A DNA stretch of 64,000 nucleotides from Naegleria gruberi (taxonomy: Eukaryota): NCBI GenBank assembly GCA_000004985.1, contig GG738878.1, one strand, 5' to 3'. Position 1 is the first letter of the stretch. Each line of letters opens with the position of its first letter. A program made the position numbers and the translations under genes. Under the pieces are notes generated by a model. The model was not told where the DNA came from and made no database searches. It was given only the letters and a program-made list of their open reading frames with translations. Positions 27,907 to 49,081 of the stretch are shown here, piece after piece.

Positions 27907-29226
27907 ATGAAGGAAATTATTCCCCTCTGTTTTGGACAATGTGGTATCAATATTGGCTCTGATTTTATTCAACAAATCTACAGGGAACATTTTTTCCCTT
28001 CCAAATCTTCATCCTCATCAATTCATGATCGGAATGCTAATTATAATGAAAATGATGAATTGATGATGAATACAATGAGAGGAGAAGCCTCTATTTACTT
28101 TTCCGAATCATCCAATAGTACATTCACCTCTCGGGGTCTTTTAATTGATTTACAAAGCCAATTTAAATATCAATCTAAATTGTTGAATAATGATGAAATA
28201 CAAAATACAATTGATTTGAATAATAATGTAATATTTCCAAGACAGAATGGTGTGTATTGCTCTCCAGATTGGCCAGGTGGTAAATATGAATCCGGAGCTG
28301 ATTTATTTACCAATGATGTGATGGATCGAGTGAGGAAATTATTGGAGGATTGTGATTCGTTTCATGGATTTCAGTTTTTTCATGGGATGGTTGGATCTTC
28401 GAGTGGTTTCTACTCGAGAATTTGTGCACATTTGAGAGAGGAGTATCCTGATAAGATGTTTTGGTCATGTAGTGTATTTCATGATTCCAAGAGTGAGGAT
28501 AAAGCAGTGTGGATGTATGATTCCATATTGACCTTTCAGTACATGATGGAGCTCAATGATATGATTACCTGTGTGAGGAATAGTGAGCTAATTGATAAAT
28601 GTGTACAGAATGGAAAGGATTATCCAACTTATAGAGATTATAATAATGTGATTAGAAGCTTCTTTCCAAACATTACATCAGTTTTTAGGTATCCTTCTCA
28701 ACAAGGATGTGATTTGAGGAAAATGTGTCTCAATCTTGCACCTACCAGACACTGCTTGATTGAAGTTAGTGAAACTACTGCTTTACAAAATGAGACAACA
28801 CCTATTTATGAAACAATTTATAATTTGAATAGTCAATTGATTCAACAAAAGAGTTCAGAGAAGATCCTTTCTGCCATTTCAATATTGAGAGCTAGTGGAA
28901 CATTGGGCTTGGAAGCAGAAAGAAACCTTCGGAAATCAGTCAAAGATCATTCACAATCAGAATTTCCATTCAAACCCCTTGTTGTGAATCAACAATCAAG
29001 CGATAACACGATCAGCAATACATTGCTTACCAACTCTTCATCAATTACCACGGCTCTGGAAAATATTTATGAAGTAACAGAAAGATTTTTCAGAAGGAAA
29101 ACTTTCATTTATGGATACACAAGAGGAGGATTAGAGGAAATGGAAATTACTGAATCTCAGTATTATCTTCGAGAGGCTATTGATACTTATACAGAGAGCG
29201 AACCTAAAGAAGATGAACTTGCTTAA
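27907..29226 (+). CDS. highly divergent tubulin-superfamily protein with a degenerate GTP-binding signature
   Basis: The ORF is 439 aa. The N-terminus MKEIIPLCFGQCGINIGSDFIQQIYREHF aligns with tubulin MREI..GQCGNQIG..FW. The segment HGFQFFHGMVGSSSGFYSRICAHLREEYPDKM aligns with tubulin [32 protein letters not shown], but the glycine loop is GMVGSSSG rather than GGGTGSG. The rest is strongly diverged. Confidence 0.6.
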   Translation: MKEIIPLCFGQCGINIGSDFIQQIYREHFFPSKSSSSSIHDRNANYNENDELMMNTMRGEASIYFSESSNSTFTSRGLLIDLQSQFKYQSKLLNNDEIQNTIDLNNNVIFPRQNGVYCSPDWPGGKYESGADLFTNDVMDRVRKLLEDCDSFHGFQFFHGMVGSSSGFYSRICAHLREEYPDKMFWSCSVFHDSKSEDKAVWMYDSILTFQYMMELNDMITCVRNSELIDKCVQNGKDYPTYRDYNNVIRSFFPNITSVFRYPSQQGCDLRKMCLNLAPTRHCLIEVSETTALQNETTPIYETIYNLNSQLIQQKSSEKILSAISILRASGTLGLEAERNLRKSVKDHSQSEFPFKPLVVNQQSSDNTISNTLLTNSSSITTALENIYEVTERFFRRKTFIYGYTRGGLEEMEITESQYYLREAIDTYTESEPKEDELA

Positions 29227-32807: not shown

Positions 32808-34406
32808 ATGATGTCAAATAATACAGTGACAGTTGGCAACTCAACAATTTGCCATGAATTTCTGTTTAATACAACATCGAGCAGAGAAATTCTACCTTCA
32901 ATTGAATATGATATCTGTCCTGATACCTACATTTCGTTTTGTAAGTTTCCCACAATCTCTACAATTGTGAATCCTAAACCAAACTAAACCTGTATTCGAA
33001 ACAATACAATAGCCATACTGTTGGCCTTTCTCACTGGATACATTCTACTTCTCCTCATCACTACCATTCTTGTCATATGGAAACGAAACTCTGGACATAT
33101 CCTTGCTCGTGATCCAGCTCAGTTAATCTTAACCATGTTGACAGGATTTCAATTTGTGGCCATTTTCTCACTTCGAATAATTATTGGAAGAAAGATCTTT
33201 CCATGTGCCCTGTATTCATATTGTTTCTTTGTTGTGGGGCCTGTAATTTGTCTTCCTTCCATATGTAGAAGTTTAAAATTATATTTCCATTTCAAGTTAA
33301 ATCTTCAGAAAATGAAATTCTTCAAGGAAAGTGAAACTCCAGACGATTCTTCATCTGTATTTTCAAGTTCTGATTCCATGTCTCATAATTCAGTGAAACA
33401 GAAATTACCAAATTTGAGAGTTTTGAAATTTTATCAATTTATGGTTAGCCACAAATTTATTATTGCAACCTATATCGGAGTTTTTATTATTCAAACCGCA
33501 ATATGGGCTATCGTTGGTGGAATTGATGAGATTTTATATTCACTCAATACGGATTTACAAAATAGGAAAAGGTTTTTTGTGAGTCCAGGATTTTTTGAAT
33601 TTAAAATTGGATGCAGTTTGACAAGTGGAATTTTAATTGTAATCTTGATTGAGTCAGTGTTTTATATTGCAGCTGAGGTGATTACATTGATAATGTGTAT
33701 TAGATCTGATAGAGATACTTGGTCAATTAAGAAGGAAACTTTGATTTATGTCATTGTTCAATCAATTGGAATTTCTCTATTTGTCATTTCATCATTTATT
33801 GATATCATGTCAATATTGGTTGATTATTTCGTACCATATGCCTTGTTCATGTTTGGAGCTCTTGCTTTGGAAACTATCATTTGTGTGCTACTTCCTGTGT
33901 GTTATGCTATTAGAAAGGATTTCCACTCAACACATCACAATCCACAAGATAGCACTCTGGAAAGTATTTTGAAAAACAAGAAGGGATTCAAAACAATTCT
34001 CGATTTTGCTCGTAGATCCTATTGTCCAGAAGCAGTTCTCTGTTGGTCTGATATTCAGAGATTTAAGGATTGTAAGAAACGTGAGAAAAAGCTTGAAATT
34101 GCCAAGTATATTATTGAGCATTATTTGACACCTTCCAGTTATTTAGAGTTAAATATGCCACAATTGGCAAATGTCAAGGAGGAATTAAGTTTGATGGTGA
34201 TGGGTTCAGCAAGTACAGTTTCTAATGATGTATTCGATATGATTGAGAATCATTGTTTGCAGGATTTGGCTGATTTACAGCATAGATTGGTGAGCAGTGA
34301 TAAATTTATCGCATCAATGGTGCAAGAATTGAAGGAATTACAAAGATTGAAAGCAAGCTGTGAAGAGAAGGTAGAAGAAACTTTCAATGTTGAATTGGAA
34401 ATTTAA
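32808..34406 (+). CDS. seven-transmembrane protein with a C-terminal RGS domain (7TM-RGS); two exons join(32808..32940, 33013..34406)
   Basis: Exon 1 is MMSNNTVTVGNSTICHEFLFNTTSS... with NxS/T sequons, typical of an extracellular GPCR N-terminus. It ends TTT T|GTAAGT. The acceptor CAATAG|CC restores the frame. Exon 2 encodes about 7 hydrophobic helices and then an RGS-like domain (KTILDFARRSYCPEAVLCWSDIQRFKD..AKYIIEHYLTPSSYLELNMPQ), followed by a coiled-coil tail. Confidence 0.6.
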
Positions 34407-36709
34407 AACTGTGACAAGTTGATGATTATTCCTCGCATTAGCTTGTCCGGTAATTTCTCAATCCTTGCATAATCAGTGAAGAGGAGTTTTTTGTTTGAGA
34501 CTCCAAAGTTGACCAGTTCATTAAGAATATTCTCAAATAAAGGGCAATTTAAATAATTTTCAAAACTTGATGCAAGATCAAAGTAATTATCAATTGTAAT
34601 TATCAGCGTACTTTTAAAATAATCAACAAAATAATGAATTTCATGAATGATTGCCATATCAATTAATGTAAAAAGTTTTGATGGATCTATCTCGTAAACT
34701 GGAATTCCATAACAATATTTGATGATAATTTCTAATAATTCCAAATCCATTGAATCATCAGGTGTAAAGACATCATCACTAAGATCACTGAATGATGATC
34801 CACTTTCGAATAATGCATTAAAAAATGTACTTTTGGAACTGAGTATTGTTTTGTGGCAGTATAAATACTTGTCTTGTCCCATTTTGATTTTAACGTCGCT
34901 TGCTTTTTCATTATTAAATAATCTTTCAATTCCCTGTTGTTCAATTTCATTATCCTCCTGTATTTCAATTGGACTTGTAACATGTGTTTCCATTACAGAT
35001 AAAATGTTAAAGCTATATCTCTTAATGATGGGATAAGACAAAAGTGTTTTTCCTGTAAGAGACTTTAACTGGATGGCAGAATATTCCAAACAATAATTGT
35101 TCAAATATTCAAGTAAATGATTTTGAATTTCTATTTCTTCATGACAAAGTTTGAGTAAATTATCAACTTGTTCCCATTTTGAAGGAAGTGTTTCCAGTGT
35201 GATGGAATTAATAAATCCATGTACAAATGCTCTTTTAAAATCGATAAATTCACAATTCTTGAACATTCCTAAAATGAATAATACATTCAATATATCATAT
35301 TCTCTAAATGAATTCAATCTTTCAATCTCTGTAAATTGATATATATTTTCATATATCAATGAATCAATTAGTTTTTGTATAATTACTATTTGTTGCGAAT
35401 TCATTGATTTCAATAGTTTTTCATTTTTCAATATTATTTTACAAAATTGTGGTGATAACTTTTCTATTAATGGAATAAATCCAATCAATTCCAATCCAAA
35501 TAATTCATCTCTTGAATGTTTTTTCAATTGGATTTTTGGAATTATAGTATAATCATTTCCAATATGTGGATGCGATGAAAAATCAAATGGTGAATCACCT
35601 CCAAATCCTTCTTCACCATTTCCAGCAATTGTTTTAATTGTTCCATTTCTTAATATTTTTCTAATTCTATGATTTTCTGTATCAGCAATATAAACTTCAT
35701 CATTTCGAGAAACGAATATATTGTCTACATATGATATTTGTGCATTAATTGCAAGTCCTCCATCACCACTATATCCTTTAACTCCAGTTCCTGCAATTGT
35801 TGTAATATTGGCATTTCTTAATATTTTTCTAATTCTATAATTTCCACTATTCATAATATAAACTTCATTCGTTGATGAAACAAATACACCACATGGATGG
35901 TTAACTTGTGCATTAATTGCAGGACCACCATCACCACTGAATCCTTCTTCTCCAGTTCCTGCAATTGTATTAATAATTCCATTTCTTAATATTTTTCTAA
36001 TTCGATGATTGTTGTAATCTACAATATAAACTTCATCGTTATTAGAAACAAAAACACCACAAGGGCTGTCTAATTGTGCACTTGTTGCAGGGCCACCATC
36101 TCCACTAAATCCTTTTTCTCCAGTTCCTGCAATTGTTACAATAGTTCCATTTCTCAATATCTTTCTAATTCTATGATTTCCAAAATCAGAAAAATAAATT
36201 TCATCATTTTGAGAAACGAATATATTCTGTACATATGATATTTGTGCATTAATTGCAGGTCTACCATCACCACTATATCCTTTTTCTCCAGTTCCTGCAA
36301 TTGTTACAATATTGCCATTTCTTAATATTTTTCTAATTCTATAATTTCCACTATCAGCAAAAAAAACTTCATTCGTTGATGAAACAAATACACTACATGG
36401 ATGGCTCAATTGTGCACTTGTTGCAGGATCACCGTCACCACTAAATCCTTCTTCTCCAGTTCCTGCGATGGTGACTATAGTTCCATCTTTTAATATTTTT
36501 CTCACCCTATGATTTTGGCAATCTGCCATATAAACCTCATCATTCGGAGCAACAAACACTCCTCCCGGACAATTTAACATTGCTTTAGTGGCTAATTTTT
36601 TATTCATCATTTTAGCCTTTTTCTTTACTTTATTTTCGTCATTTTCATCATTTTCTGATGATGAAGAAGCCGATGATGATGCGGATGAAGAACAAAGGCT
36701 TCGTTTCAT
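34403..36709 (-). CDS. NHL-repeat beta-propeller protein with a C-terminal BTB/POZ domain (paralog A)
   Basis: About 769 aa from MKRSL at 36709. The ORF-track start at 36733 is an upstream in-frame TTG. It has at least 7 NHL-type repeats (..HRIRKILRNGTIVTIAGTGEEGFSGDGGPA..AQL..PCGVFVS..DEVY.AD..N). A helical middle region follows. The C-terminal BTB is DVKIKMGQDKYLYCHKTILSSKSTFFNALFESGSSFSDLSDDVFTPDDSMDLELLEIIIKYCYG. Its stop codon overlaps the stop of the convergent 7TM-RGS gene. Confidence 0.7.
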   Translation of the reverse strand: MKRSLCSSSASSSASSSSENDENDENKVKKKAKMMNKKLATKAMLNCPGGVFVAPNDEVYMADCQNHRVRKILKDGTIVTIAGTGEEGFSGDGDPATSAQLSHPCSVFVSSTNEVFFADSGNYRIRKILRNGNIVTIAGTGEKGYSGDGRPAINAQISYVQNIFVSQNDEIYFSDFGNHRIRKILRNGTIVTIAGTGEKGFSGDGGPATSAQLDSPCGVFVSNNDEVYIVDYNNHRIRKILRNGIINTIAGTGEEGFSGDGGPAINAQVNHPCGVFVSSTNEVYIMNSGNYRIRKILRNANITTIAGTGVKGYSGDGGLAINAQISYVDNIFVSRNDEVYIADTENHRIRKILRNGTIKTIAGNGEEGFGGDSPFDFSSHPHIGNDYTIIPKIQLKKHSRDELFGLELIGFIPLIEKLSPQFCKIILKNEKLLKSMNSQQIVIIQKLIDSLIYENIYQFTEIERLNSFREYDILNVLFILGMFKNCEFIDFKRAFVHGFINSITLETLPSKWEQVDNLLKLCHEEIEIQNHLLEYLNNYCLEYSAIQLKSLTGKTLLSYPIIKRYSFNILSVMETHVTSPIEIQEDNEIEQQGIERLFNNEKASDVKIKMGQDKYLYCHKTILSSKSTFFNALFESGSSFSDLSDDVFTPDDSMDLELLEIIIKYCYGIPVYEIDPSKLFTLIDMAIIHEIHYFVDYFKSTLIITIDNYFDLASSFENYLNCPLFENILNELVNFGVSNKKLLFTDYARIEKLPDKLMRGIIINLSQF

Positions 36710-36752
36710 TTTTTTTGTAAAAAAAATCTTCAAATGAAAAGATCAAGTCAAC

Positions 36753-39187
36753 NNNNNNNNNNNNNNNNNNNNNNNNNNNNNNNNNNNNNNNNNNNNNNNN
36801 NNNNNNNNNNNNNNNNNNNNNNNNNNNNNNNNNNNNNNNNNNNNNNNNNNNNNNNNNNNNNNNNNNNNNNNNNNNNNNNNNNNNNNNNNNNNNNNNNNNN
36901 NNNNNNNNNNNNNNNNNNNNNNNNNNNNNNNNNNNNNNNNNNNNNNNNNNNNNNNNNNNNNNNNNNNNNNNNNNNNNNNNNNNNNNNNNNNNNNNNNNNN
37001 NNNNNNNNNNNNNNNNNNNNNNNNNNNNNNNNNNNNNNNNNNNNNNNNNNNNNNNNNNNNNNNNNNNNNNNNNNNNNNNNNNNNNNNNNNNNNNNNNNNN
37101 NNNNNNNNNNNNNNNNNNNNNNNNNNNNNNNNNNNNNNNNNNNNNNNNNNNNNNNNNNNNNNNNNNNNNNNNNNNNNNNNNNNNNNNNNNNNNNNNNNNN
37201 NNNNNNNNNNNNNNNNNNNNNNNNNNNNNNNNNNNNNNNNNNNNNNNNNNNNNNNNNNNNNNNNNNNNNNNNNNNNNNNNNNNNNNNNNNNNNNNNNNNN
37301 NNNNNNNNNNNNNNNNNNNNNNNNNNNNNNNNNNNNNNNNNNNNNNNNNNNNNNNNNNNNNNNNNNNNNNNNNNNNNNNNNNNNNNNNNNNNNNNNNNNN
37401 NNNNNNNNNNNNNNNNNNNNNNNNNNNNNNNNNNNNNNNNNNNNNNNNNNNNNNNNNNNNNNNNNNNNNNNNNNNNNNNNNNNNNNNNNNNNNNNNNNNN
37501 NNNNNNNNNNNNNNNNNNNNNNNNNNNNNNNNNNNNNNNNNNNNNNNNNNNNNNNNNNNNNNNNNNNNNNNNNNNNNNNNNNNNNNNNNNNNNNNNNNNN
37601 NNNNNNNNNNNNNNNNNNNNNNNNNNNNNNNNNNNNNNNNNNNNNNNNNNNNNNNNNNNNNNNNNNNNNNNNNNNNNNNNNNNNNNNNNNNNNNNNNNNN
37701 NNNNNNNNNNNNNNNNNNNNNNNNNNNNNNNNNNNNNNNNNNNNNNNNNNNNNNNNNNNNNNNNNNNNNNNNNNNNNNNNNNNNNNNNNNNNNNNNNNNN
37801 NNNNNNNNNNNNNNNNNNNNNNNNNNNNNNNNNNNNNNNNNNNNNNNNNNNNNNNNNNNNNNNNNNNNNNNNNNNNNNNNNNNNNNNNNNNNNNNNNNNN
37901 NNNNNNNNNNNNNNNNNNNNNNNNNNNNNNNNNNNNNNNNNNNNNNNNNNNNNNNNNNNNNNNNNNNNNNNNNNNNNNNNNNNNNNNNNNNNNNNNNNNN
38001 NNNNNNNNNNNNNNNNNNNNNNNNNNNNNNNNNNNNNNNNNNNNNNNNNNNNNNNNNNNNNNNNNNNNNNNNNNNNNNNNNNNNNNNNNNNNNNNNNNNN
38101 NNNNNNNNNNNNNNNNNNNNNNNNNNNNNNNNNNNNNNNNNNNNNNNNNNNNNNNNNNNNNNNNNNNNNNNNNNNNNNNNNNNNNNNNNNNNNNNNNNNN
38201 NNNNNNNNNNNNNNNNNNNNNNNNNNNNNNNNNNNNNNNNNNNNNNNNNNNNNNNNNNNNNNNNNNNNNNNNNNNNNNNNNNNNNNNNNNNNNNNNNNNN
38301 NNNNNNNNNNNNNNNNNNNNNNNNNNNNNNNNNNNNNNNNNNNNNNNNNNNNNNNNNNNNNNNNNNNNNNNNNNNNNNNNNNNNNNNNNNNNNNNNNNNN
38401 NNNNNNNNNNNNNNNNNNNNNNNNNNNNNNNNNNNNNNNNNNNNNNNNNNNNNNNNNNNNNNNNNNNNNNNNNNNNNNNNNNNNNNNNNNNNNNNNNNNN
38501 NNNNNNNNNNNNNNNNNNNNNNNNNNNNNNNNNNNNNNNNNNNNNNNNNNNNNNNNNNNNNNNNNNNNNNNNNNNNNNNNNNNNNNNNNNNNNNNNNNNN
38601 NNNNNNNNNNNNNNNNNNNNNNNNNNNNNNNNNNNNNNNNNNNNNNNNNNNNNNNNNNNNNNNNNNNNNNNNNNNNNNNNNNNNNNNNNNNNNNNNNNNN
38701 NNNNNNNNNNNNNNNNNNNNNNNNNNNNNNNNNNNNNNNNNNNNNNNNNNNNNNNNNNNNNNNNNNNNNNNNNNNNNNNNNNNNNNNNNNNNNNNNNNNN
38801 NNNNNNNNNNNNNNNNNNNNNNNNNNNNNNNNNNNNNNNNNNNNNNNNNNNNNNNNNNNNNNNNNNNNNNNNNNNNNNNNNNNNNNNNNNNNNNNNNNNN
38901 NNNNNNNNNNNNNNNNNNNNNNNNNNNNNNNNNNNNNNNNNNNNNNNNNNNNNNNNNNNNNNNNNNNNNNNNNNNNNNNNNNNNNNNNNNNNNNNNNNNN
39001 NNNNNNNNNNNNNNNNNNNNNNNNNNNNNNNNNNNNNNNNNNNNNNNNNNNNNNNNNNNNNNNNNNNNNNNNNNNNNNNNNNNNNNNNNNNNNNNNNNNN
39101 NNNNNNNNNNNNNNNNNNNNNNNNNNNNNNNNNNNNNNNNNNNNNNNNNNNNNNNNNNNNNNNNNNNNNNNNNNNNNNNNNNNNNNN
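36753..39187. other. assembly gap (N-run, 2435 nt)
   Basis: A continuous run of n characters. ORF-track entries that cross it (X-stretch ORFs) are artifacts. Confidence 1.
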
Positions 39188-40599
39188 AAAATGAATAATA
39201 CATTCAATATATCATATACTCTAAATGAATTCAATCTTTCAACCTCTGTAAAATGATATATATTTTCATATATCAATGAATCAATTAGTTTTTGTATAAT
39301 TTCTATTTGTTGCGAATTCATTGATCTCAATAGTTTTTCATTTTTCAATATTATTTTACAAAATTGTGGTGATAATTTTTCTATTAATGGAATAAATCCA
39401 ATCAAATTCAATCCAAATAATTCATCTCTTGAATGTTTTTTCAATTGGATTTTTGGAATTATAGTATAATCATTTCCAATATGTGGATGCGATGAAAAAT
39501 CAAATGGTGAATCACCTCCAAATCCTTTTTCACCATTTCCAGCAATTGTTTCAATTGTTCCATCTTTCAATATTTTTCTAATTCGATGATTATTTGTATC
39601 AGCAATATAAACTTCATCATTTTGAGAAACAAATATATTCTCTACATATGATATTTGTGCATTAATTGCAAGTCCTCCATCACCACTATATCCTTTAACT
39701 CCAGTTCCTGCAATTGTTGTAATATTGCCATTTCTTAATATTTTCCTAATTCTATAATTATAACTATCAGTAATATAAACTTCATTCGTTGATGAAACAA
39801 ATACACCACATGGATGGCTCAATTGTGCACTTGTTGCAGGTCCTCCATCACCTCCAAATCCTTGTTCACCAGTTCCTGCAATTGTTATAATTGTTCCATC
39901 TTGCAACATCTTTCTAATTCGATGACTCTTGTAATCTACAATATAAACTTCATCGTTATTAGAAACAAAAACACCACAAGGGGTGTTTAATTTTGCATTA
40001 ATTGCAGGACCACCATCTCCACTAAATCCTTGTTCACCAGTTCCTGCAATTGTTACAATAGTTCCATTTCTCAATATCTTTCTAATTCTATGATTTCTAA
40101 AATCAGAAAAATAAACTTCATCATTTTGAGAAACGAATATATTATTTACAGCTGATATTTGTGCATTAATTGCAGGTCCTCCATCTCCACTATATCCTTC
40201 TTCTCCAGTTCCTGCAATTGTTACAATATTGCCATTTCTTAATATTTTTCTAATTCTATAATTTCCAAAATCAGAAATATAAACTTCATTCGTTGATGAA
40301 ACAAATACATCACATGGATGGTTAAATTGTGCACTTGTTGCAGGTCCACCATCACCACTGAATCCTTCTCCTTCTTCTTCTCCAATTCCTGCAATGGTGA
40401 CTATGGTTCCATCTTTTAATATTTTTCTCACCCGATGATTTAGGTTATCAGCAATATAAATTTCATCATTCGGAGCAACAAACACTCCTCCTGGACAATT
40501 TAACATTGCATCGGTGGCCATCATCATTTTGGCTTTTTTAAATTTATTTTCATCAGCAACATTTTCGTCATTATTAGAGGAAGCAAGACTTCGTTTCAT
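39188..40599 (-). CDS. NHL-repeat/BTB protein paralog B (5' part only; the 3' end lies in the assembly gap)
   Basis: It starts MKRSLASSNNDENVADENKFKKAKMMMATDAMLNCPGGVFVAPNDEIYIADNLNHRVRKIL.. and continues with NHL repeats. The sequence just right of the gap (39188..~39520) is about 97% identical to 35281..35610 of paralog A. Confidence 0.65.
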
Positions 40600-41319
40600 T
40601 TTTTTTTAACATTTTCAATACAGGTTTACAATGAATATATTAGGTTACTGCTAAGACAAAATTGACTTTGGATTGTAAAAACAGTGTTTCATGTTTGCTT
40701 TCCAAAAATCTTGTTTTAAATTCTTTCTTAATGTAATAAAACTTTATTTTAAAAAAACTTAATATAGAAATAATAGATTCAGTGAAATTTTGATGTTGGA
40801 TTGTGGATTTTGTTATTTAATGGATGGGTCTTGTGTAGCCTGTCTCCATCCATAGATATGCTATCATTGAAACTTGGCGATTACAAAAAAATTATCTGAA
40901 GTTGGGCCAATTAGACAATGACTACAATAATAGCACACACTCTCTGGAGAAACTCTCTCGTCTTATCAGCAAAGACTCCTCAACTTTATTTGGGACAAGC
41001 ACAAAAGAACACCTAAGAACGTGGCAGCTTTAAAACACTTTAACTCTTGTTAATACATAATATTTGGTGTTGGTGGTAGACGAGACATCAAGTATGTCGA
41101 TGTTATTACAAAACTGTGTGATGTTCGACTCATTTGATTTGGTCTGATTGTTTTTTTTGATCACGTTTAGCTGATTAAGTTTATCATGAGATTAGAAGTA
41201 TCCCTATTCCTTGATTCGAATATGTTTTCAAATAAAGCTTGGAATCGAACTCATCAGATACAACAATTTCAAAATAGATAACTAGTCCTTTAAACTAATA
41301 TTACAAAAAGTTTAAAAAA

Positions 41320-43686
41320 ATGAAACGAAGTCTTGCTACTACACATTCATCGGAATCGAATAATGGAGAAAGTTGTGATGCTGCTAATGATGAAAATAAA
41401 TTAAAAAAGGCTAAAATGATGATGGCCACCGATGCAATGCTAAATTGTCCAGTGGAGGTATTTGTTGCTCCGAATGATGAAATTTATATTGCTGATAGAG
41501 ATAATCATCGGGTGAGAAAAATACTAAAAGATGGAACAATGGTAACCATTGCAGGATGGAGTTTTGGTGGTTTTGGTGGTGATGGTGGTCCTGCAACGAG
41601 TGCAATGTTGGATTTTCCCACAAGTATTGCTGTTTCTTCAGATAATGAAGTGTATATTGCTGATTTGGGAATTTATAGAATTAGGAAAATATTAAGAAAT
41701 GGTAATATTGTAACAATTGCTGGAACTGGAGAAGAAGGATTTAGTGGTGATGGAGGACCTGCAATTAATGCACAAATATCAGCTGTGTGGAATATTGCCC
41801 TTTCTCAAAATAATGAATTGTATTTTGTTGACTATTCAAACTGTAGAATCAGGAAAATATTAAGAAATGGAACTATTGTAACAATTGCAGGAACTGGAGA
41901 AGACGGATTTAGTGGAGATGGTGGACTCGCAATCAATGCAAAACTTGGCTATCCTTGCAGTGTTTTTGTTTCCAAAGATGATGAGGTGTATATTGCTGAT
42001 AGCCAAAATAATAGGGTGAGAAAAATATTGAGAAATGGAATTATTAATACAATTGCAGGAACTGGAGAAGAAGGATTCAGTGGTGATGGTGGACCTGCAA
42101 CAAATGCACAATTGAACGTTCCATGTGGTGTATTTGTTTCAGCAACGAATGAAGTTTATATTGTGGATAGTGGAAATTGTAGAATTAGAAAAATATTGAG
42201 AAATGGAATTATTAATACAATTGCAGGAACTGGAGAAGAAGGATATAGTGGTGATGGAGGACCTGCAATTAATGCACAAATATCAAATGTATACAATATA
42301 TTCGTTTCTCAAAATGATGAAGTTTATATTGCCGATACAAATAATCACAGAATTAGAAAAATATTGAAAGATGGAACAATTGAAACAATTGCTGGAAATG
42401 GTGAAAAAGGATTCAGTGGTGATTCACCATTTGATTTTTCATCGCATCCACACATTGGAAATGATTATACTATAATTCCAAAAATCCAATTGAAAAAACA
42501 TTCAAGAGATGAATTATTTGGATTGGAATTGATTGGATTTATTCCATTAATAGAAAAGTTATCACCACAATTTTGTAAAATAATATTGAAAAATGAAAAA
42601 CTATTGAAATCAATGAATTCGCAACAAATAGAAATTATTCAAAAACTAATTGATTCATTGATATATGAAAATGTATATCATTTTACAGAGATTGAAAGAT
42701 TGAATTCATTTAAAGAATATGATATATTGAATGTATTATTCATTTTAGGAATGTTCAAGAATTGTGAATTTATTGATTTTAAAAGAGTATTTGTAAACGC
42801 ATTTATTAATTCCATCACGCTGGAAACACTTCCTTCAAAATGGGAACAAAGTGAGAATTTACTCAAATTTTGTCAAGAAATAGAAGTTGAAAATTACATA
42901 TTGGAATATTTGAATAATTATTGTTTGGAATATTCTGCCATTCAATTGAGAAATCCACAATCAGCAAAACATCTTAAAACTGCACCAATCATTATGAGAA
43001 ATAGTCTGAATATTGTATTAATGTTGGAAGTAACAACGACAAGTCCAATGCAAATAGAAGACACTGAAATTAAACTACAAGGAATGGAATCACTATTTAA
43101 TGATGAGAAGTCCAGTGATGTTAAAATCAAAATAAGCAAAGACCAATATTTATATTGTCACAAATCAATACTAAGCAGTTCGTGTATTTTTTTTAATGCA
43201 TTATTCGAAAGTGGATCATCATTCAGTGATCTTAGTGATGATGTCTTTACACCTGATGAATCAGAAGATTTAGAATTATTGGAAATTAGTATCAAAAGTT
43301 GTTATGGGATTCCAATCCATAACTCTTTTAGTTTTATTAGATTAATAGATATAGCTTTGAAACATGAAAATCAATGCCTAATTTATCATTGCAAGAAAAA
43401 CTTTTCACTAACAATTGATAATTATTTCGAAAAAGCCTTAGAATGTGGAAAATATTTTCATTTAGATTGTTTTTCAAGTTTTTTTGATACTTTTTTGAGC
43501 TTTGGAACACGAAATTGTGAAAAACTCTTCACAGATTGTGCAAAAGTTGGTCAATTACCAGAGCAACTTCGCAATGCCTTAATCATCGACTTTACACTAG
43601 TGTTGAGCTTTTCCTCGAGACCTGCTCTCACTTGGAGATATCCGAATGTTTATTATGATGACCCTGAGTTTGGTGTTCGTTTTTAA
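41320..43686 (+). CDS. NHL-repeat/BTB protein paralog C (788 aa)
   Basis: It has the same architecture and an N-terminus collinear with paralogs A and B (MKRSLATTHSSESNNGESCDAANDENKLKKAKMMMATDAMLNCP..). The C-terminal BTB is DVKIKISKDQYLYCHKSILSSSCIFFNALFESGSSFSDLSDDVFTPDESEDLELLEISIKSCYG. Confidence 0.7.
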   Translation: MKRSLATTHSSESNNGESCDAANDENKLKKAKMMMATDAMLNCPVEVFVAPNDEIYIADRDNHRVRKILKDGTMVTIAGWSFGGFGGDGGPATSAMLDFPTSIAVSSDNEVYIADLGIYRIRKILRNGNIVTIAGTGEEGFSGDGGPAINAQISAVWNIALSQNNELYFVDYSNCRIRKILRNGTIVTIAGTGEDGFSGDGGLAINAKLGYPCSVFVSKDDEVYIADSQNNRVRKILRNGIINTIAGTGEEGFSGDGGPATNAQLNVPCGVFVSATNEVYIVDSGNCRIRKILRNGIINTIAGTGEEGYSGDGGPAINAQISNVYNIFVSQNDEVYIADTNNHRIRKILKDGTIETIAGNGEKGFSGDSPFDFSSHPHIGNDYTIIPKIQLKKHSRDELFGLELIGFIPLIEKLSPQFCKIILKNEKLLKSMNSQQIEIIQKLIDSLIYENVYHFTEIERLNSFKEYDILNVLFILGMFKNCEFIDFKRVFVNAFINSITLETLPSKWEQSENLLKFCQEIEVENYILEYLNNYCLEYSAIQLRNPQSAKHLKTAPIIMRNSLNIVLMLEVTTTSPMQIEDTEIKLQGMESLFNDEKSSDVKIKISKDQYLYCHKSILSSSCIFFNALFESGSSFSDLSDDVFTPDESEDLELLEISIKSCYGIPIHNSFSFIRLIDIALKHENQCLIYHCKKNFSLTIDNYFEKALECGKYFHLDCFSSFFDTFLSFGTRNCEKLFTDCAKVGQLPEQLRNALIIDFTLVLSFSSRPALTWRYPNVYYDDPEFGVRF

Positions 43687-44434: not shown

Positions 44435-45756
44435 TTACTTGGATTTTGGAAGAATCTTTTGTAAATATTCAAAAACTGTTTCTTTATCTTTTAAGTGAAT
44501 TTTCAAGATTCCTGAATATAAATTTCCAAGTCTGATATCATTCTCTGCAAGAAGTTGCACAAATTCTTTCAAATCTCGACTGAAATCTGTAGACGAAAAT
44601 GAATAATAGATTAGAGATTTGTTAGACAATGATGCAGATAGCATTTGAATAACACTTTTCAATGTCTATCACCACGGAATACGCCACATCCCCAATTGCC
44701 TGTTGCTATTGTTGAATATTTGGAAAATGTAAAACCTGTTTGAGATTTTAAGATTTCCCTCTTAACATTTTGAGGTTCAAATTGAGAATTAGTATCCTTT
44801 CCAAAGAATGATAAGGCATCAATGGCACAAATCTCATTAATGTGAGGACTCTCATCAACACATACTCCTTCATACTTGAAATCCTCTCCAAACCCTGAAT
44901 AATGGGAATATTTTCTAGCTCCATTAATGAGTATAGCTTCATTGTCGTTCATCTTTTCACAAATTAATCTGGCTATATTCTTTTCGAATGAAATGGAGAA
45001 CATTATCTCTTCCTGTACACACCCATAAGAAAGAGATGCTCCTCCAATGAATTGATTGGCAAAATCCACATGCGTTGCGTTTGGTTCATCATTGATAGAT
45101 CCGCTGGCTTTGATTTGAACTTGGCAAAGTCTTTCTTGTGATTTTTCGATAGATGGAATTGAATTTAAATGAACTCTACTAATTGTAATTACATCTTTTG
45201 AAATCCCATTCTGAATCACATTCCATTCCCTCTCCATTAATGAGAAATAGTTCAATACCAAGCATTTCACTCTGTAATTATTTCACAATACAATTATTCA
45301 AGTATAAACCTACTCTTCACTTATTTCAGTACTATACATATCTGTAAAATTAATGGATGGAAATATTTCCCAACACTCCTCATAACAAGCTCTCTTCCAC
45401 AAACAAAAAAAGCTATTTGCCAACAAAGAGGCAGCTGCCATCCTTGTAATTTCCACTGTCAAATTATTGCCTCTCCTCAAGTAAGGTAAACTATTCGGCT
45501 TTAGATATTTATCACTTTCCAACACTAATTTTACAATGAATGGAATAACTTTTGAGAGTAGTCCAGTCTTTCCGTGATCCTTCTCATAATATTTCTTATC
45601 ATACAAACTTAAAGCATTCACCAAAATTAAATAATTATCATCCAAATATTCGATCGGATCACCTGTAAAGGGATGAATCTTACTCGATAATTCATAAATG
45701 ACCTTTGCAACCATTCGGGATGTAATATTCTTTGGTTTTTCAATTAGTTTTTTCAA
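44435..45756 (-). CDS. PARG: poly(ADP-ribose) glycohydrolase (PARG) catalytic-domain protein; a 42-nt intron at roughly 45272..45313 and an apparent 1-nt frameshift near 44660
   Basis: The 45310..45756 part has AAASLLANSFFCLWKRA..FPSINFTDMYS (the PARG N-terminal macro-fold region). The 44659..45270 part has the PARG signature VDFANQFIGGASLSYGCVQEEIMF plus TGNWGCGVFRGD. The 44435..44662 part continues as KSVIQMLSASLS.., matching PARG's GDARLKALLQIL. The intron is GAAGA|GTAGGT..AATTACAG|A. The 5' end of the gene is not resolved. Confidence 0.75.
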
Positions 45757-46933: not shown

Positions 46934-49081
46934 ATGGAAAAACGAAAATCATCTCATCAATTTCGTCATCATCACACAATAACAGCAAGGTCATCATTAC
47001 TATTGATGAATATTTTTCTTCTGATGATATTCAATACAATAACAAATAACAATAATAATTGCTTTGTTTTGGGAGGTTTTTCTCTATTTCCTCCTTCCAT
47101 TTCATATGCTCCGAGTTTCTTGTTTAGAAAATCAATATTATATGATGTGAGTCCGAATGTTGGATTTGAAGAATGGACAGGATATACAATAGAAGCTCTA
47201 GGTGATTTTACCAATCAAAAAACAACAGACTTAATAACAGTTTCATCCGATAGAAAGGCCATTCAAATACTAGTTTGGAATACATACAAGTGGAAATTTG
47301 TAAATCATACACAATTTGATTACCGATTGTCGAATTTAATTGATGAAAATGTGGAAATTGTGAGTCTGGTAGCTTCCGATTTTAATTATGATGGTGCTCT
47401 GGATTTGTTGGTTACTTTGATGGATCCGAGTAGTAGTGAACAACTTTACACACACCATTTCTTATTGGGTGATTTTAAGAGTCTTCGTGATGGTGGATTC
47501 TTGTCATCGAAAACAACCGATCAAATAAGTGTAGTTGATGTGAATGGAGATTTGCTTCCTGACTTATTTTCTACTGATGCATCAACAGGAAAACGAACAT
47601 TTTGGATTAATGATAATGTAGAATACAAGTCGAATGTGCTCAATTATACTCAAATTGACCAGGAGAGTTTTACAGAGACTGAAAATTTGAATCCTCTTGC
47701 CTTTCCAATGGCAGTAATTAATGTTGATATTGATGGAGATTGTGGATCCGATTTAATCATTATGAGTTGTTCACACGCATCGAGTAATACCACTTGTGAT
47801 TCACCTCATTTGGAAATTTGGATTAATGAAATGGGAAAACTCAAGCTCAATACTACAATCAATCTTCCAAAGGGTGCCGGAAGACCTGTGATTTTGGACT
47901 TTGATCATGATGGAGATATGGACATTTTGTATCCTGTTTGTTATCCTTTGGATACTTGTGAGGAAACAAATGAGCTTCATGTCATCTTTAATGACCAGCT
48001 ACCACTCTGCACCGGCATTACTATTGATGACACCAATTGTCGACAAGATACTGACCTCTGTAGGCAGAGTTCATTCTCACTTTCAAAGAGAGCTGTTATT
48101 GAATTGCCCGACTCTAGAAAGAGAATATTGCACCACCTTGATAGTACTAAATTCCACTCAAGACCAGCTACCCTCAGAGTTGGAGATTTTAACCTTGATG
48201 GTTATCCAGATCTTGTTGTCAGTGTTGTCAATACCAAGGATGATCACCAAGAGGTTGGAATTGAATTGTGGCAAAATGTTGAATGTCCAGAAGCAAGTTC
48301 TTCAGAAAATCAATTATTCAATTGTACCCACACAAGTACTTCCAGAACTTTCCAAGTTGTCTCTCAACATGTTGATGCCCTCAATGAGGCATCCATTGCA
48401 AAAGTGCCACCCAAAACAAAAATGAATGAAATGCCCAAGTTGGATGCCTTCTTTTTGGATATTGATGAAACAGGAGTATTGGATATTATTACAATTTATC
48501 ACGATGAACATCTTTACAATAGAACTTTGGGAGCTTTCTTTAATTGCTTCTTCAATGACGCCTACTTTTTAAAAACCATCTCAACCAATGGTGTTACCTC
48601 TAAAGATGGTACATATTATTATGGTGTCAATGCTCCAGGTGTTACTATCAAATTTACCTCCACAAAATTAGATGGAACAAAACAAGCTAACATGCAATCA
48701 CTCATCTCTCAAACTAATTATCTAGCTCTGGAAACGCCTTACAAATTATTTGGATTGGGAAGAACTAATGGCTATGTAGAGGAATTCTTTGTTGGTAAGG
48801 CACATGCCACTAAGGACAGCTCAACCAATTACAAATCATTTAGTGCCATTATTCCAAACTCTCAATTGGTCACTCTCAACACACCACCTAATAAGCCCGA
48901 TTCTTGGGATGTTCAACTCTTTGTGAATCCATCAGGAGCTAGTTTGTGGGTAATTATTGCTGAAATTGTATCTCTCATCTTGTTGGCCATACCAATTCTG
49001 ATTTTATGGTTCCGAGAACATAGAGAAGATAAGAGAGAAAAGGAGGAAGTGAGTAGGGAAATTAGCTCTGTGTTTATTTAA
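46934..49081 (+). CDS. integrin-alpha FG-GAP repeat-containing protein (ITFG1/TIP-like), type I membrane
   Basis: The ORF is 715 aa. It has an N-terminal signal/TM. FG-GAP/Ca-binding-like repeats are repeated (NYDGALDLLVT, DVNGDLLPDLFS, DIDGDCGSDLII, DFDHDGDMDILYP, VGDFNLDGYPDLVVS, LDIDETGVLDIITIY). It has a C-terminal TM (LWVIIAEIVSLILLAIPILILWF) and a short acidic tail. Confidence 0.7.
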   Translation: MEKRKSSHQFRHHHTITARSSLLLMNIFLLMIFNTITNNNNNCFVLGGFSLFPPSISYAPSFLFRKSILYDVSPNVGFEEWTGYTIEALGDFTNQKTTDLITVSSDRKAIQILVWNTYKWKFVNHTQFDYRLSNLIDENVEIVSLVASDFNYDGALDLLVTLMDPSSSEQLYTHHFLLGDFKSLRDGGFLSSKTTDQISVVDVNGDLLPDLFSTDASTGKRTFWINDNVEYKSNVLNYTQIDQESFTETENLNPLAFPMAVINVDIDGDCGSDLIIMSCSHASSNTTCDSPHLEIWINEMGKLKLNTTINLPKGAGRPVILDFDHDGDMDILYPVCYPLDTCEETNELHVIFNDQLPLCTGITIDDTNCRQDTDLCRQSSFSLSKRAVIELPDSRKRILHHLDSTKFHSRPATLRVGDFNLDGYPDLVVSVVNTKDDHQEVGIELWQNVECPEASSSENQLFNCTHTSTSRTFQVVSQHVDALNEASIAKVPPKTKMNEMPKLDAFFLDIDETGVLDIITIYHDEHLYNRTLGAFFNCFFNDAYFLKTISTNGVTSKDGTYYYGVNAPGVTIKFTSTKLDGTKQANMQSLISQTNYLALETPYKLFGLGRTNGYVEEFFVGKAHATKDSSTNYKSFSAIIPNSQLVTLNTPPNKPDSWDVQLFVNPSGASLWVIIAEIVSLILLAIPILILWFREHREDKREKEEVSREISSVFI

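What the first reader, a model, noticed from the sequence alone, without database searches (positions are those of the whole stretch)
34403..43686. Cluster of three paralogous NHL beta-propeller + C-terminal BTB genes (two tandem, one divergent) spanning an assembly gap
Three genes (34403..36709 on the minus strand, 39188..40599+ on the minus strand, 41320..43686 on the plus strand) all begin MKRSL.., carry 7-8 NHL repeats and end in a BTB/POZ domain. BTB normally precedes Kelch/BACK propellers. An N-terminal NHL propeller with a C-terminal BTB is an unusual arrangement. It suggests a lineage-specific family of CUL3-type substrate adaptors, or an NHL protein that oligomerises through BTB. Sequence right of the 2.4-kb N-gap is about 97% identical to the matching part of paralog A. 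Recent tandem duplication or gene conversion therefore probably caused the assembly gap. The true copy number may be higher.
Basis: partly seen in the sequence, partly recalled or inferred. Interest (0 to 1): 0.65.

Follow-up and report, generated by a model that had tools for sequence, protein, structure and literature searches.

The report
Naegleria NHL-propeller BTB adaptor gene cluster
Three neighbouring duplicate genes of the amoeboflagellate Naegleria gruberi encode a six-bladed NHL propeller joined to a SPOP-like BTB tail, most likely lineage-specific ubiquitin-ligase adaptors; one public gene model here wrongly fuses two of them across an assembly gap.

Summary
The window is Naegleria gruberi (Heterolobosea, not Amoebozoa). 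Three paralogs sit at the stated coordinates. A (768 aa) and C (788 aa) are intact single ORFs. B is cut at codon 470 by a 2,435-N gap.

Each protein has a six-bladed NHL propeller, not 7-8 repeats. A and C continue with a ~170-residue helical domain that has no detectable relatives, then a C-terminal BTB plus 3-box/short-BACK module. That module matches SPOP, KBTBD2/4 and KEAP1 best. B's BTB cannot be seen.

A C-terminal BTB is not unprecedented: SPOP/MATH-BTB has this order, and by my recollection RCBTB and ankyrin-BTB do too.

The helical+BTB module defines a larger family. Its named members come only from N. gruberi and N. lovaniensis. Their N-termini vary: NHL, ankyrin, RCC1 or low complexity.

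A, B and C form one clade. A ~0.5-kb tract is nearly identical in all three, synonymous sites included, which indicates gene conversion. B breaks off inside this tract, which plausibly explains the gap. The gap has no room for a further full copy.

Public model NAEGRDRAFT_69492 is a B/A chimera without a BTB. The Cul3-adaptor function is inferred, not tested. Interest is modest.

The parts
34403..36709 (-). Paralog A: complete 768-aa ORF (NHL propeller, helical domain, BTB-3-box). It is absent as an exact sequence from the public protein collection.
   Evidence: ORF. Pfam NHL/TEN_NHL/BTB. AF2 model with pLDDT 79. Exact look-up negative.
35594..36586 (-). A: six-bladed NHL beta-propeller (about residues 42-372), with a 56-aa (168-nt) repeat and a 3+3 blade super-repeat.
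   Evidence: TRF 35594..36540, period 168, 5.6 copies. Six motifs at 56-aa spacing. AF2 blades at pLDDT ~90. Foldseek matches to NHLRC2, SOQ1 and teneurin-like NHL domains. Blades 1-3 are 84-86% identical in DNA to blades 4-6 of the other copies.
34985..35503 (-). A: family-specific all-helical domain (about residues 403-575) between the propeller and the BTB. No known family matches it.
34406..34942 (-). A: BTB domain plus 3-box/short-BACK-like C-terminal helices (about residues 590-768).
36753..39187 (.). Assembly gap (2,435 N). It hides the 3' ~868 nt of paralog B and the B-A intergenic region.
   Evidence: N-run coordinates. B's last base aligns to A nucleotide 1439 of 2307.
39188..40599 (-). 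Paralog B: the first 470 codons (N-terminus, six NHL blades, start of the helical domain), truncated by the gap.
   Evidence: ORF and alignment. Pfam NHL 1.1e-28. TRF period 168.
40600..41319 (.). Divergent 720-nt intergenic region between B and C. The upstream regions of A, B and C are not similar to one another.
   Evidence: Sequence and self-BLAST.
41320..43686 (+). Paralog C: complete 788-aa ORF, identical to public NAEGRDRAFT_69493 / XP_002675386.1. Same architecture, with a more divergent BTB/tail and a 27-aa C-terminal extension.
   Evidence: ORF. Pfam. Exact look-up. Alignment.
35131..35630 (-). Homogenised (gene-conversion) tract in A. The matching tracts are B 39188..39547 (abutting the gap) and C 42387..42883.
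   Evidence: Identity of 95-100% in all three pairs. pS of 0-0.13 here versus 0.3-0.7 elsewhere in A/C. Longest identical runs: 178 nt for A/C (no shuffle of 10,000 reached it), 119 nt for A/B (p=0.001), 72 nt for B/C (p=0.005).

Best explanation
A, B and C are a locally duplicated cluster within a Naegleria-restricted family of modular BTB proteins. An inverted duplication came first, then a tandem one.

Each protein has four parts:
- a short disordered basic N-terminus;
- a six-bladed NHL beta-propeller;
- a family-specific helical domain;
- a C-terminal BTB followed by 3-box/short-BACK helices, as in SPOP.

The most likely mechanism is that of a SPOP-like cullin-3 RING-ligase substrate adaptor. 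The BTB would dimerise and, together with the 3-box, dock onto a cullin N-terminal domain. The NHL propeller would recruit substrates through its variable loops. The helical domain would act as a rigid spacer or a second interaction surface.

Shown here: the domain identities, the fold similarity, the family distribution, the duplication order and the gene conversion. Inferred: dimerisation, cullin binding, substrate recruitment and ubiquitylation.

The paralogs exchange sequence by gene conversion. The near-identical tract probably broke the assembly and misled the public gene model.
For: - Domains: Pfam NHL and BTB score above their cut-offs.
- Propeller: the AF2 model shows a six-bladed propeller (pLDDT ~90), a helical domain and a BTB tail. 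It matches NHLRC2, SOQ1 and teneurin-type NHL domains.
- C-terminal module by sequence: the family profile aligns to KBTBD2 16-181 (E 2.6e-14), KBTBD4, KEAP1 BTB-3-box, SPOP 172-335 and vaccinia A55 BTB-BACK. This goes beyond the BTB core into the 3-box/BACK region that gives high-affinity Cul3 binding (PMC10564622).
- Modularity: the same helical+BTB module is fused to NHL, ankyrin or RCC1 domains in other family members, as expected for an adaptor with an exchangeable recognition domain.
- Loop variation: differences among blades and paralogs fall at a few loop positions on an invariant framework.
- Constraint: the ORFs are intact, and pN is below pS over most of their length.
- Cullins: cullin genes are reported in the Naegleria pangenome (PMC9928731).
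- Duplication order: clade (C,(A,B)).
- Gene conversion.
Against: - No binding or expression data exist.
- The canonical phi-x-E Cul3-contact motif (KEAP1 L115-R-E117; PMC10564622) is not cleanly aligned. The family has a conserved F-x-D in the same loop, but it is offset or gapped in the HMM alignments.
- That loop is modelled with low confidence (pLDDT <50 at residues 635-645).
- BACK is truncated.
- I did not test whether N. gruberi has a Cul3 orthologue.
- C's BTB matches Pfam only partially, and its tail evolves with pN about equal to pS.
- BTB domains also act purely as oligomerisation modules.
Confidence: 0.55

Rival explanations
1. The proteins are cullin-independent, BTB-oligomerised NHL scaffolds. 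The BTB/BACK-like tail only makes dimers or higher oligomers, so that several NHL propellers bind a multivalent ligand (protein, RNA or glycan) without ubiquitylation.
For: - The phi-x-E motif is not clearly conserved.
Against: - The sequence profile prefers Cul3 adaptors (KBTBD2/4, KEAP1, SPOP) over ZBTB-type BTBs by many orders of magnitude: E 1e-14 to 1e-11 versus 1e-9 to 1e-6.
- The alignment extends through the 3-box region, which ZBTB proteins lack.
Confidence: 0.27
2. The NHL propeller is an enzyme (a lactonase/lyase-like six-bladed propeller such as SGL/SMP-30 or virginiamycin B lyase), and the BTB tail merely oligomerises or localises it.
For: - A and B give weak sub-threshold Pfam matches to Vgb_lyase, 23.8 and 29 bits against a cut-off of 50.
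- One relative matches SGL.
- Foldseek lists virginiamycin B lyase at E ~1e-15.
Against: - These hits are below the curated cut-offs and well behind the non-enzymatic NHL domains (teneurin-like protein 43% identity, NHLRC2, SOQ1).
- No catalytic residues were identified.
- The same tail is fused to ankyrin and RCC1 domains, which are binding modules rather than enzymes.
Confidence: 0.06
3. One or more copies, especially C with its divergent tail or the truncated B, are decaying duplicates or assembly artefacts rather than functional genes.
For: - A/C pN is about equal to pS in the last ~80 codons.
- C's BTB matches Pfam only partially, and C carries a 27-aa C-terminal extension.
- B is incomplete because of the gap.
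- Public models in this family are often chimeric (P0001, P0005).
Against: - A and C are uninterrupted ORFs of 768 and 788 codons in an AT-rich genome, where stop codons arise easily.
- pN is below pS over most of their length.
- The framework residues of every blade are intact in all three copies.
Confidence: 0.1

Closest known systems
SPOP / MATH-BTB Cul3 substrate adaptors
   Different: The recognition domain is a six-bladed NHL propeller, not MATH. An extra ~170-residue helical domain lies between the recognition domain and the BTB. Sequence identity is only 12-14%. The phi-x-E motif is not clearly conserved.
BTB-BACK-Kelch proteins (KLHL/KBTBD, e.g. KBTBD2, KBTBD4, KEAP1, vaccinia A55)
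   Same: These give the best sequence-profile matches for the BTB + 3-box + start of BACK (E 2.6e-14 to 1e-11). They also pair a beta-propeller with a BTB in one polypeptide.
   Different: The order is reversed (propeller first). The propeller is NHL, not Kelch. BACK is truncated to a few helices. Pfam finds no BACK or Kelch.
RCBTB1/2 and other 'domain-then-BTB' proteins (RhoBTB, ankyrin-BTB such as ABTB1/2) - from established knowledge, not tested here
   Same: An N-terminal propeller or repeat domain is followed by a C-terminal BTB. The Naegleria family itself includes RCC1-module and ankyrin-module members (P0207, P0135, P0139).
   Different: No homology beyond the BTB was shown. The Naegleria helical domain was not compared with these proteins.
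TRIM-NHL proteins (TRIM71/LIN-41, Brat, Thin)
   Same: They have a six-bladed NHL propeller used as a ligand-binding (RNA or protein) module attached to an E3-ligase-related part. They appear among the Foldseek hits.
   Different: No RING, B-box or coiled coil is present. The NHL here is of the teneurin/NHLRC2/bacterial type: 43% identity to a teneurin-like protein and 40-53% to bacterial NHL proteins, against 22-24% to TRIM-NHL. The E3 connection would run through BTB-cullin instead of RING.

Membership tests
NHL-repeat beta-propeller (Pfam PF01436 / PF25021) | Profile match above the curated cut-off | tested here: met
   NHL scores 75.7, 98.2 and 88.5 bits (cut-off 20). TEN_NHL scores 108-131 bits (cut-off 27.1) in A, B and C.
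NHL-repeat beta-propeller (Pfam PF01436 / PF25021) | Six four-stranded blades forming a closed propeller | tested here: met
   Six motifs at 56-aa spacing. The AF2 model has six blades at pLDDT ~90, with the last strand closing blade 1. Foldseek: NHLRC2 6g7w TM 0.84, rmsd 2.3 A.
BTB/POZ domain (PF00651) | Profile match above the curated cut-off, and the BTB core fold | tested here: met
Cul3 (CRL3) substrate adaptor of the BTB-3-box type | 3-box/BACK helices directly after the BTB | tested here: met
Cul3 (CRL3) substrate adaptor of the BTB-3-box type | phi-x-E motif in the alpha3-beta4 loop that inserts into Cul3 (KEAP1 L115-R116-E117; PMC10564622) | tested here: inconclusive
   The loop reads SGSSFSDLSDD. 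F-x-D is conserved in the NHL subgroup (F259 and D261 are invariant in A1), but it is offset or gapped relative to L-S-E of KBTBD2 in the HMM alignments. The loop has pLDDT <50.
Cul3 (CRL3) substrate adaptor of the BTB-3-box type | Physical binding to Cul3 and substrate ubiquitylation | not testable with these tools
   This needs biochemistry or at least complex prediction. Cullin genes are reported in Naegleria (PMC9928731), but a Cul3 orthologue was not identified here.
BTB-BACK-Kelch (KLHL/KBTBD) | N-terminal BTB, full BACK, C-terminal Kelch propeller | tested here: not met
   The order is reversed. There is no Kelch or BACK Pfam match, and the propeller is NHL.
MATH-BTB (SPOP family) | N-terminal MATH domain | tested here: not met
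   No MATH match was found. The N-terminal domain is NHL. The resemblance lies in domain order and in the BTB tail only.
TRIM-NHL | RING, B-box and coiled coil preceding the NHL | tested here: not met
   The Pfam scan at E<=1 shows none of these. The N-terminus is a 40-residue disordered basic segment.

The most novel reading that the evidence does not exclude
The ~170-residue helical domain plus BTB-3-box tail is a previously undescribed adaptor cassette, so far named only in Naegleria. It is combined with interchangeable recognition domains (NHL, ankyrin, RCC1). The NHL subfamily is expanding by local duplication, keeps a common core through gene conversion and diversifies its propeller loops. 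That pattern resembles the fast-evolving MATH-BTB expansions thought to target pathogen or foreign proteins. On this reading, these genes would be a heterolobosean-specific, rapidly evolving CRL3 recognition repertoire.
Probability: 0.2. Interest if true: 0.55.

Novelty: new variant of a known kind. Interest (0 to 1): 0.35.

Why it matters
If the inference holds, Naegleria built its own class of cullin-3 adaptors. They use an NHL propeller as the substrate receptor and an unknown helical domain as a connector. This would be an independent solution to the 'propeller + BTB' design of metazoan KLHL proteins, and it is organised like SPOP.

It would give an entry point to substrate-specific protein turnover in Heterolobosea, a group that includes the pathogen N. 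fowleri.

There is also a practical result. The finding corrects a public gene model: NAEGRDRAFT_69492 is a chimera of two genes and lacks the BTB. The same family contains further suspicious fused or truncated models, which would distort domain-architecture censuses.

The value is incremental. The domains are known, the proteins are already deposited as 'predicted protein', and no function has been tested.

Tried and rejected
- The look-up of encoding contigs for the N. gruberi proteins P0005 and P0003: not on record. The genomic context of other paralogs and any independent assembly across the gap therefore could not be examined.
- Second and third word-indexed homologue searches with the C-terminal half and with the family alignment: only 4 and 7 N. 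gruberi proteins returned, clearly incomplete. The exhaustive representative search was the informative one.
- IMG/VR scan for the module, to test a giant-virus link suggested by a gene-dense contig with few annotations: A3 was too divergent to build search patterns, and A1 gave no confirmed hit. I dropped the viral idea. The contig (42% GC) looks like another eukaryote.
- Literature searches for Naegleria + BTB (+ NHL) found nothing relevant.
- Bacterial origin of the NHL propeller by horizontal transfer: the best non-Naegleria hits are bacterial or metagenomic at 40-53% identity. However, the repeats are consensus-like, N. gruberi has other NHL proteins (P0072), and no phylogeny was made. 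This is left open.
Full report
**What is there**

The window has a single N run, 36753..39187 (2,435 N).
- A: 34403..36709 on the minus strand, 768 aa.
- B: 39188..40599 on the minus strand, 470 codons, then the gap.
- C: 41320..43686 on the plus strand, 788 aa.

All three begin MKRSL. A and B are head-to-tail. B and C are head-to-head across a 720-nt spacer. tblastn with C finds no further copy in the window.

**Organism and public models**

Homology search identifies the source as Naegleria gruberi, on a 395,411-bp scaffold. This species belongs to Discoba/Heterolobosea, not Amoebozoa.

C is identical to the public protein NAEGRDRAFT_69493 / XP_002675386.1.

The public model for the other two genes is NAEGRDRAFT_69492 (P0001, 819 aa), and it is a chimera. 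It runs through B up to '...EKLSPQF', jumps across the gap into A at 'STKAMLNCPGG...', and stops before the BTB. The intact 768-aa ORF A is not present as an exact sequence in the 15-billion-protein collection.

**Domains**

Pfam gives NHL (PF01436) and TEN_NHL (PF25021) far above threshold in A, B and C. It gives BTB (PF00651) above threshold in A (41.9 bits, residues 595-694) and in C (25.4 bits, partial). B's C-terminus lies in the gap, so its BTB is an assumption.

The propeller has six blades, not 7-8:
- Each protein has six R[IV]RK[IM]L motifs, spaced exactly 56 residues apart except for one 59-residue interval in B.
- TRF reports a 168-nt period with 5.1-5.6 copies.
- The AlphaFold model of A (mean pLDDT 79, propeller ~90) shows six four-stranded blades. 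The final 'TIKTIAG' strand closes blade 1.

Foldseek places the propeller with teneurin-like protein (43% identity), SOQ1, NHLRC2 and the teneurins, ahead of TRIM-NHL domains. Across copies, blades 1-3 are 84-86% identical in DNA to blades 4-6, against 73-77% at other offsets. The propeller is therefore a 3+3 super-repeat.

**Downstream of the propeller**

After it come the BTB (about residues 594-701) and further helices (residues 709-766). A profile built from 16 diverse family members aligns continuously to KBTBD2 16-181 (E 2.6e-14), KBTBD4 32-196, KEAP1 BTB-3-box, SPOP 172-335 and vaccinia A55 BTB-BACK. The match runs through the BTB, the 3-box and the start of BACK. ZBTB-type BTBs score orders of magnitude worse.

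In the Naegleria proteins that loop reads SGSSFSDLSDD, with a conserved F-x-D. It does not align cleanly with phi-x-E, and the loop is modelled at low confidence. I count this feature as inconclusive.

**Family**

I ran an exhaustive profile search with the helical+BTB module against 1.84 billion cluster representatives. It gives 339 hits at E<=1e-3. About 40 of them cover the whole module.

Their N-termini differ:
- NHL propellers: P0125, P0126, P0129, P0132, P0144.
- Ankyrin repeats: P0135, P0139.
- RCC1: P0207.
- Low-complexity or no detectable domain: P0136, P0155, P0161.

Every member that carries a name is from N. gruberi or N. lovaniensis. The rest are unnamed metagenome sequences.

N. 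gruberi alone has well over ten NHL+BTB genes on several scaffolds. In neighbour-joining trees of both halves of the protein, A, B and C form one clade, (C,(A,B)). This clade lies inside the N. gruberi paralogs, with the N. lovaniensis pair outside. That fits an inverted duplication followed by a tandem one. These are simple distance trees, and gene conversion can distort them.

**Gene conversion and the gap**

Overall DNA identity is 90.6% for A/B, 84.4% for A/C and 86.7% for B/C, but it is mosaic. From about alignment column 1100 to 1600 all three pairs are 95-100% identical. Synonymous divergence there is 0-0.13, against 0.3-0.7 elsewhere in A/C.

The longest identical runs all fall in this tract:

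| Pair | Longest identical run | Site-shuffling result |
|---|---|---|
| A/C | 178 nt | no shuffle of 10,000 reached it |
| A/B | 119 nt | p = 0.001 |
| B/C | 72 nt | p = 0.005 |

Upstream regions are unrelated. This is the signature of gene conversion among the coding regions, including the inverted copy C.

The '97% right of the gap' observation is therefore correct, but it is a property of the tract and not of a very recent A/B duplication. B's sequence ends inside this tract (39188..39547). That makes a repeat-induced assembly break plausible.

B still needs about 868 nt, because its last base aligns to A nucleotide 1439 of 2307. This leaves about 1.57 kb of the gap, too little for another 2.3-kb copy if the gap size estimate is right.

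**Selection**

A and C are intact ORFs in an AT-rich genome. pN is below pS over most of their length. Differences among blades and paralogs are concentrated at a few loop positions on an invariant framework: the two residues after GTG, the x-x-P-x-x segment, and D-x-x-N-x. This is what a diversifying binding surface would look like, but I did not fit a formal site model. The last ~80 codons of A/C evolve with pN about equal to pS, and C carries a 27-aa extension. C's tail may therefore be relaxed.

**Interpretation**

The best-supported reading (confidence about 0.55) is a SPOP-like Cul3 adaptor. The NHL propeller would be the substrate receptor. The novel helical domain would be a spacer or second surface. 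The BTB-3-box/short-BACK tail would provide dimerisation and cullin docking.

Domain identity, fold, family modularity and evolutionary dynamics are shown here. Dimerisation, cullin binding and ubiquitylation are inferred. Cullins are reported in Naegleria (PMC9928731), but I did not identify a Cul3 orthologue.

The main rival is a cullin-independent BTB-oligomerised NHL scaffold (about 0.27). An enzymatic propeller and decaying or artefactual copies are minor alternatives.

**Comparison with known systems**

The proteins are not BTB-BACK-Kelch proteins: the order is reversed, Kelch is absent and BACK is truncated. They are not MATH-BTB proteins because they have no MATH domain. They are not TRIM-NHL proteins because they have no RING, B-box or coiled coil.

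They would work like SPOP and, by my own knowledge, like RCBTB1/2, RhoBTB and ankyrin-BTB proteins. For this reason a C-terminal BTB behind a recognition domain is not in itself unusual. The new elements are the NHL partner, the conserved helical domain and the restriction of named members to Naegleria. I found no paper that describes these proteins.

**Verdict**

The details need correction: six blades, Heterolobosea, B's BTB unseen, the 97% tract shared by all three copies, and an extra copy unlikely. It is a new variant of a known kind of system, of modest interest, with a useful annotation correction.

Noticed in passing
window 36580..39330 (public model NAEGRDRAFT_69492 / P0001): The deposited gene model splices B (up to ...EKLSPQF) across the N-gap into A (from STKAMLNCPGG) and ends at ...SMNSQQIRLKD, so it loses the BTB. 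It is a two-gene chimera.
   Followed up: yes
P0005 (NAEGRDRAFT_64395) and P0053 (NAEGRDRAFT_64406), 665-kb N. gruberi scaffold: P0005 reads NHL, start of helical domain, NHL, helical domain, BTB. It is probably another fused tandem pair or a collapsed assembly. P0053 lies 11 locus tags away, which suggests a second local cluster of the family.
   Followed up: partly
P0022 and P0040 (other N. gruberi paralogs): Each contains two-blade stretches of more than 100 residues that are repeated exactly within the propeller. This indicates very recent intragenic blade duplication, blade homogenisation or an assembly artefact.
   Followed up: no
window 34403..34406: The convergent neighbour, 33021..34406 (+), is a multi-pass membrane protein with a C-terminal RGS domain (Pfam 1.4e-9). 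Its stop codon overlaps that of paralog A by 4 nt, so there is no 3' intergenic space at all.
   Followed up: partly
L002 1..16029 and L001 (ENA ERZ12289978/9, 76-kb contig, 42% GC): An unnamed eukaryote-like metagenome contig carries a BTB-module gene (P0147) and an NHL-BTB gene (P0144) about 10 kb apart. A 97-aa ubiquitin-like (Rad60-SLD) gene lies divergently, directly upstream of the NHL-BTB gene. P0160 may lie on the same contig, since its longest contig has the same length. Most neighbouring genes have no Pfam hit. The organism was not identified.
   Followed up: partly
window 36590..36709, 40500..40599, 41320..41430 (N-termini of A, B, C): The disordered N-termini share an acidic stretch followed by a basic patch (DENK-x-KKAKMM) that looks like a monopartite nuclear localisation signal. 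In A the serine/alanine run is expanded (SSSASSSASSSS).
   Followed up: no
window 44659..45270 (-), 27907..29226 (+), 46934..49081 (+): Neighbouring genes include a PARG catalytic fragment (Pfam 4e-53; the ORF starts mid-domain, so further exons are likely), a divergent tubulin/FtsZ-family protein and an ITFG1-like FG-GAP protein. These are ordinary cellular genes, which argues against a viral or foreign island.
   Followed up: partly
one search hit list (NHL half of A): Outside Naegleria, the closest NHL sequences are bacterial or metagenomic multi-repeat NHL proteins (40-53% identity; Myxococcota, Elusimicrobia, Chloroflexi) rather than other eukaryotic NHL proteins. This could reflect a bacterial-type origin or simply consensus-like repeats.
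   Followed up: no
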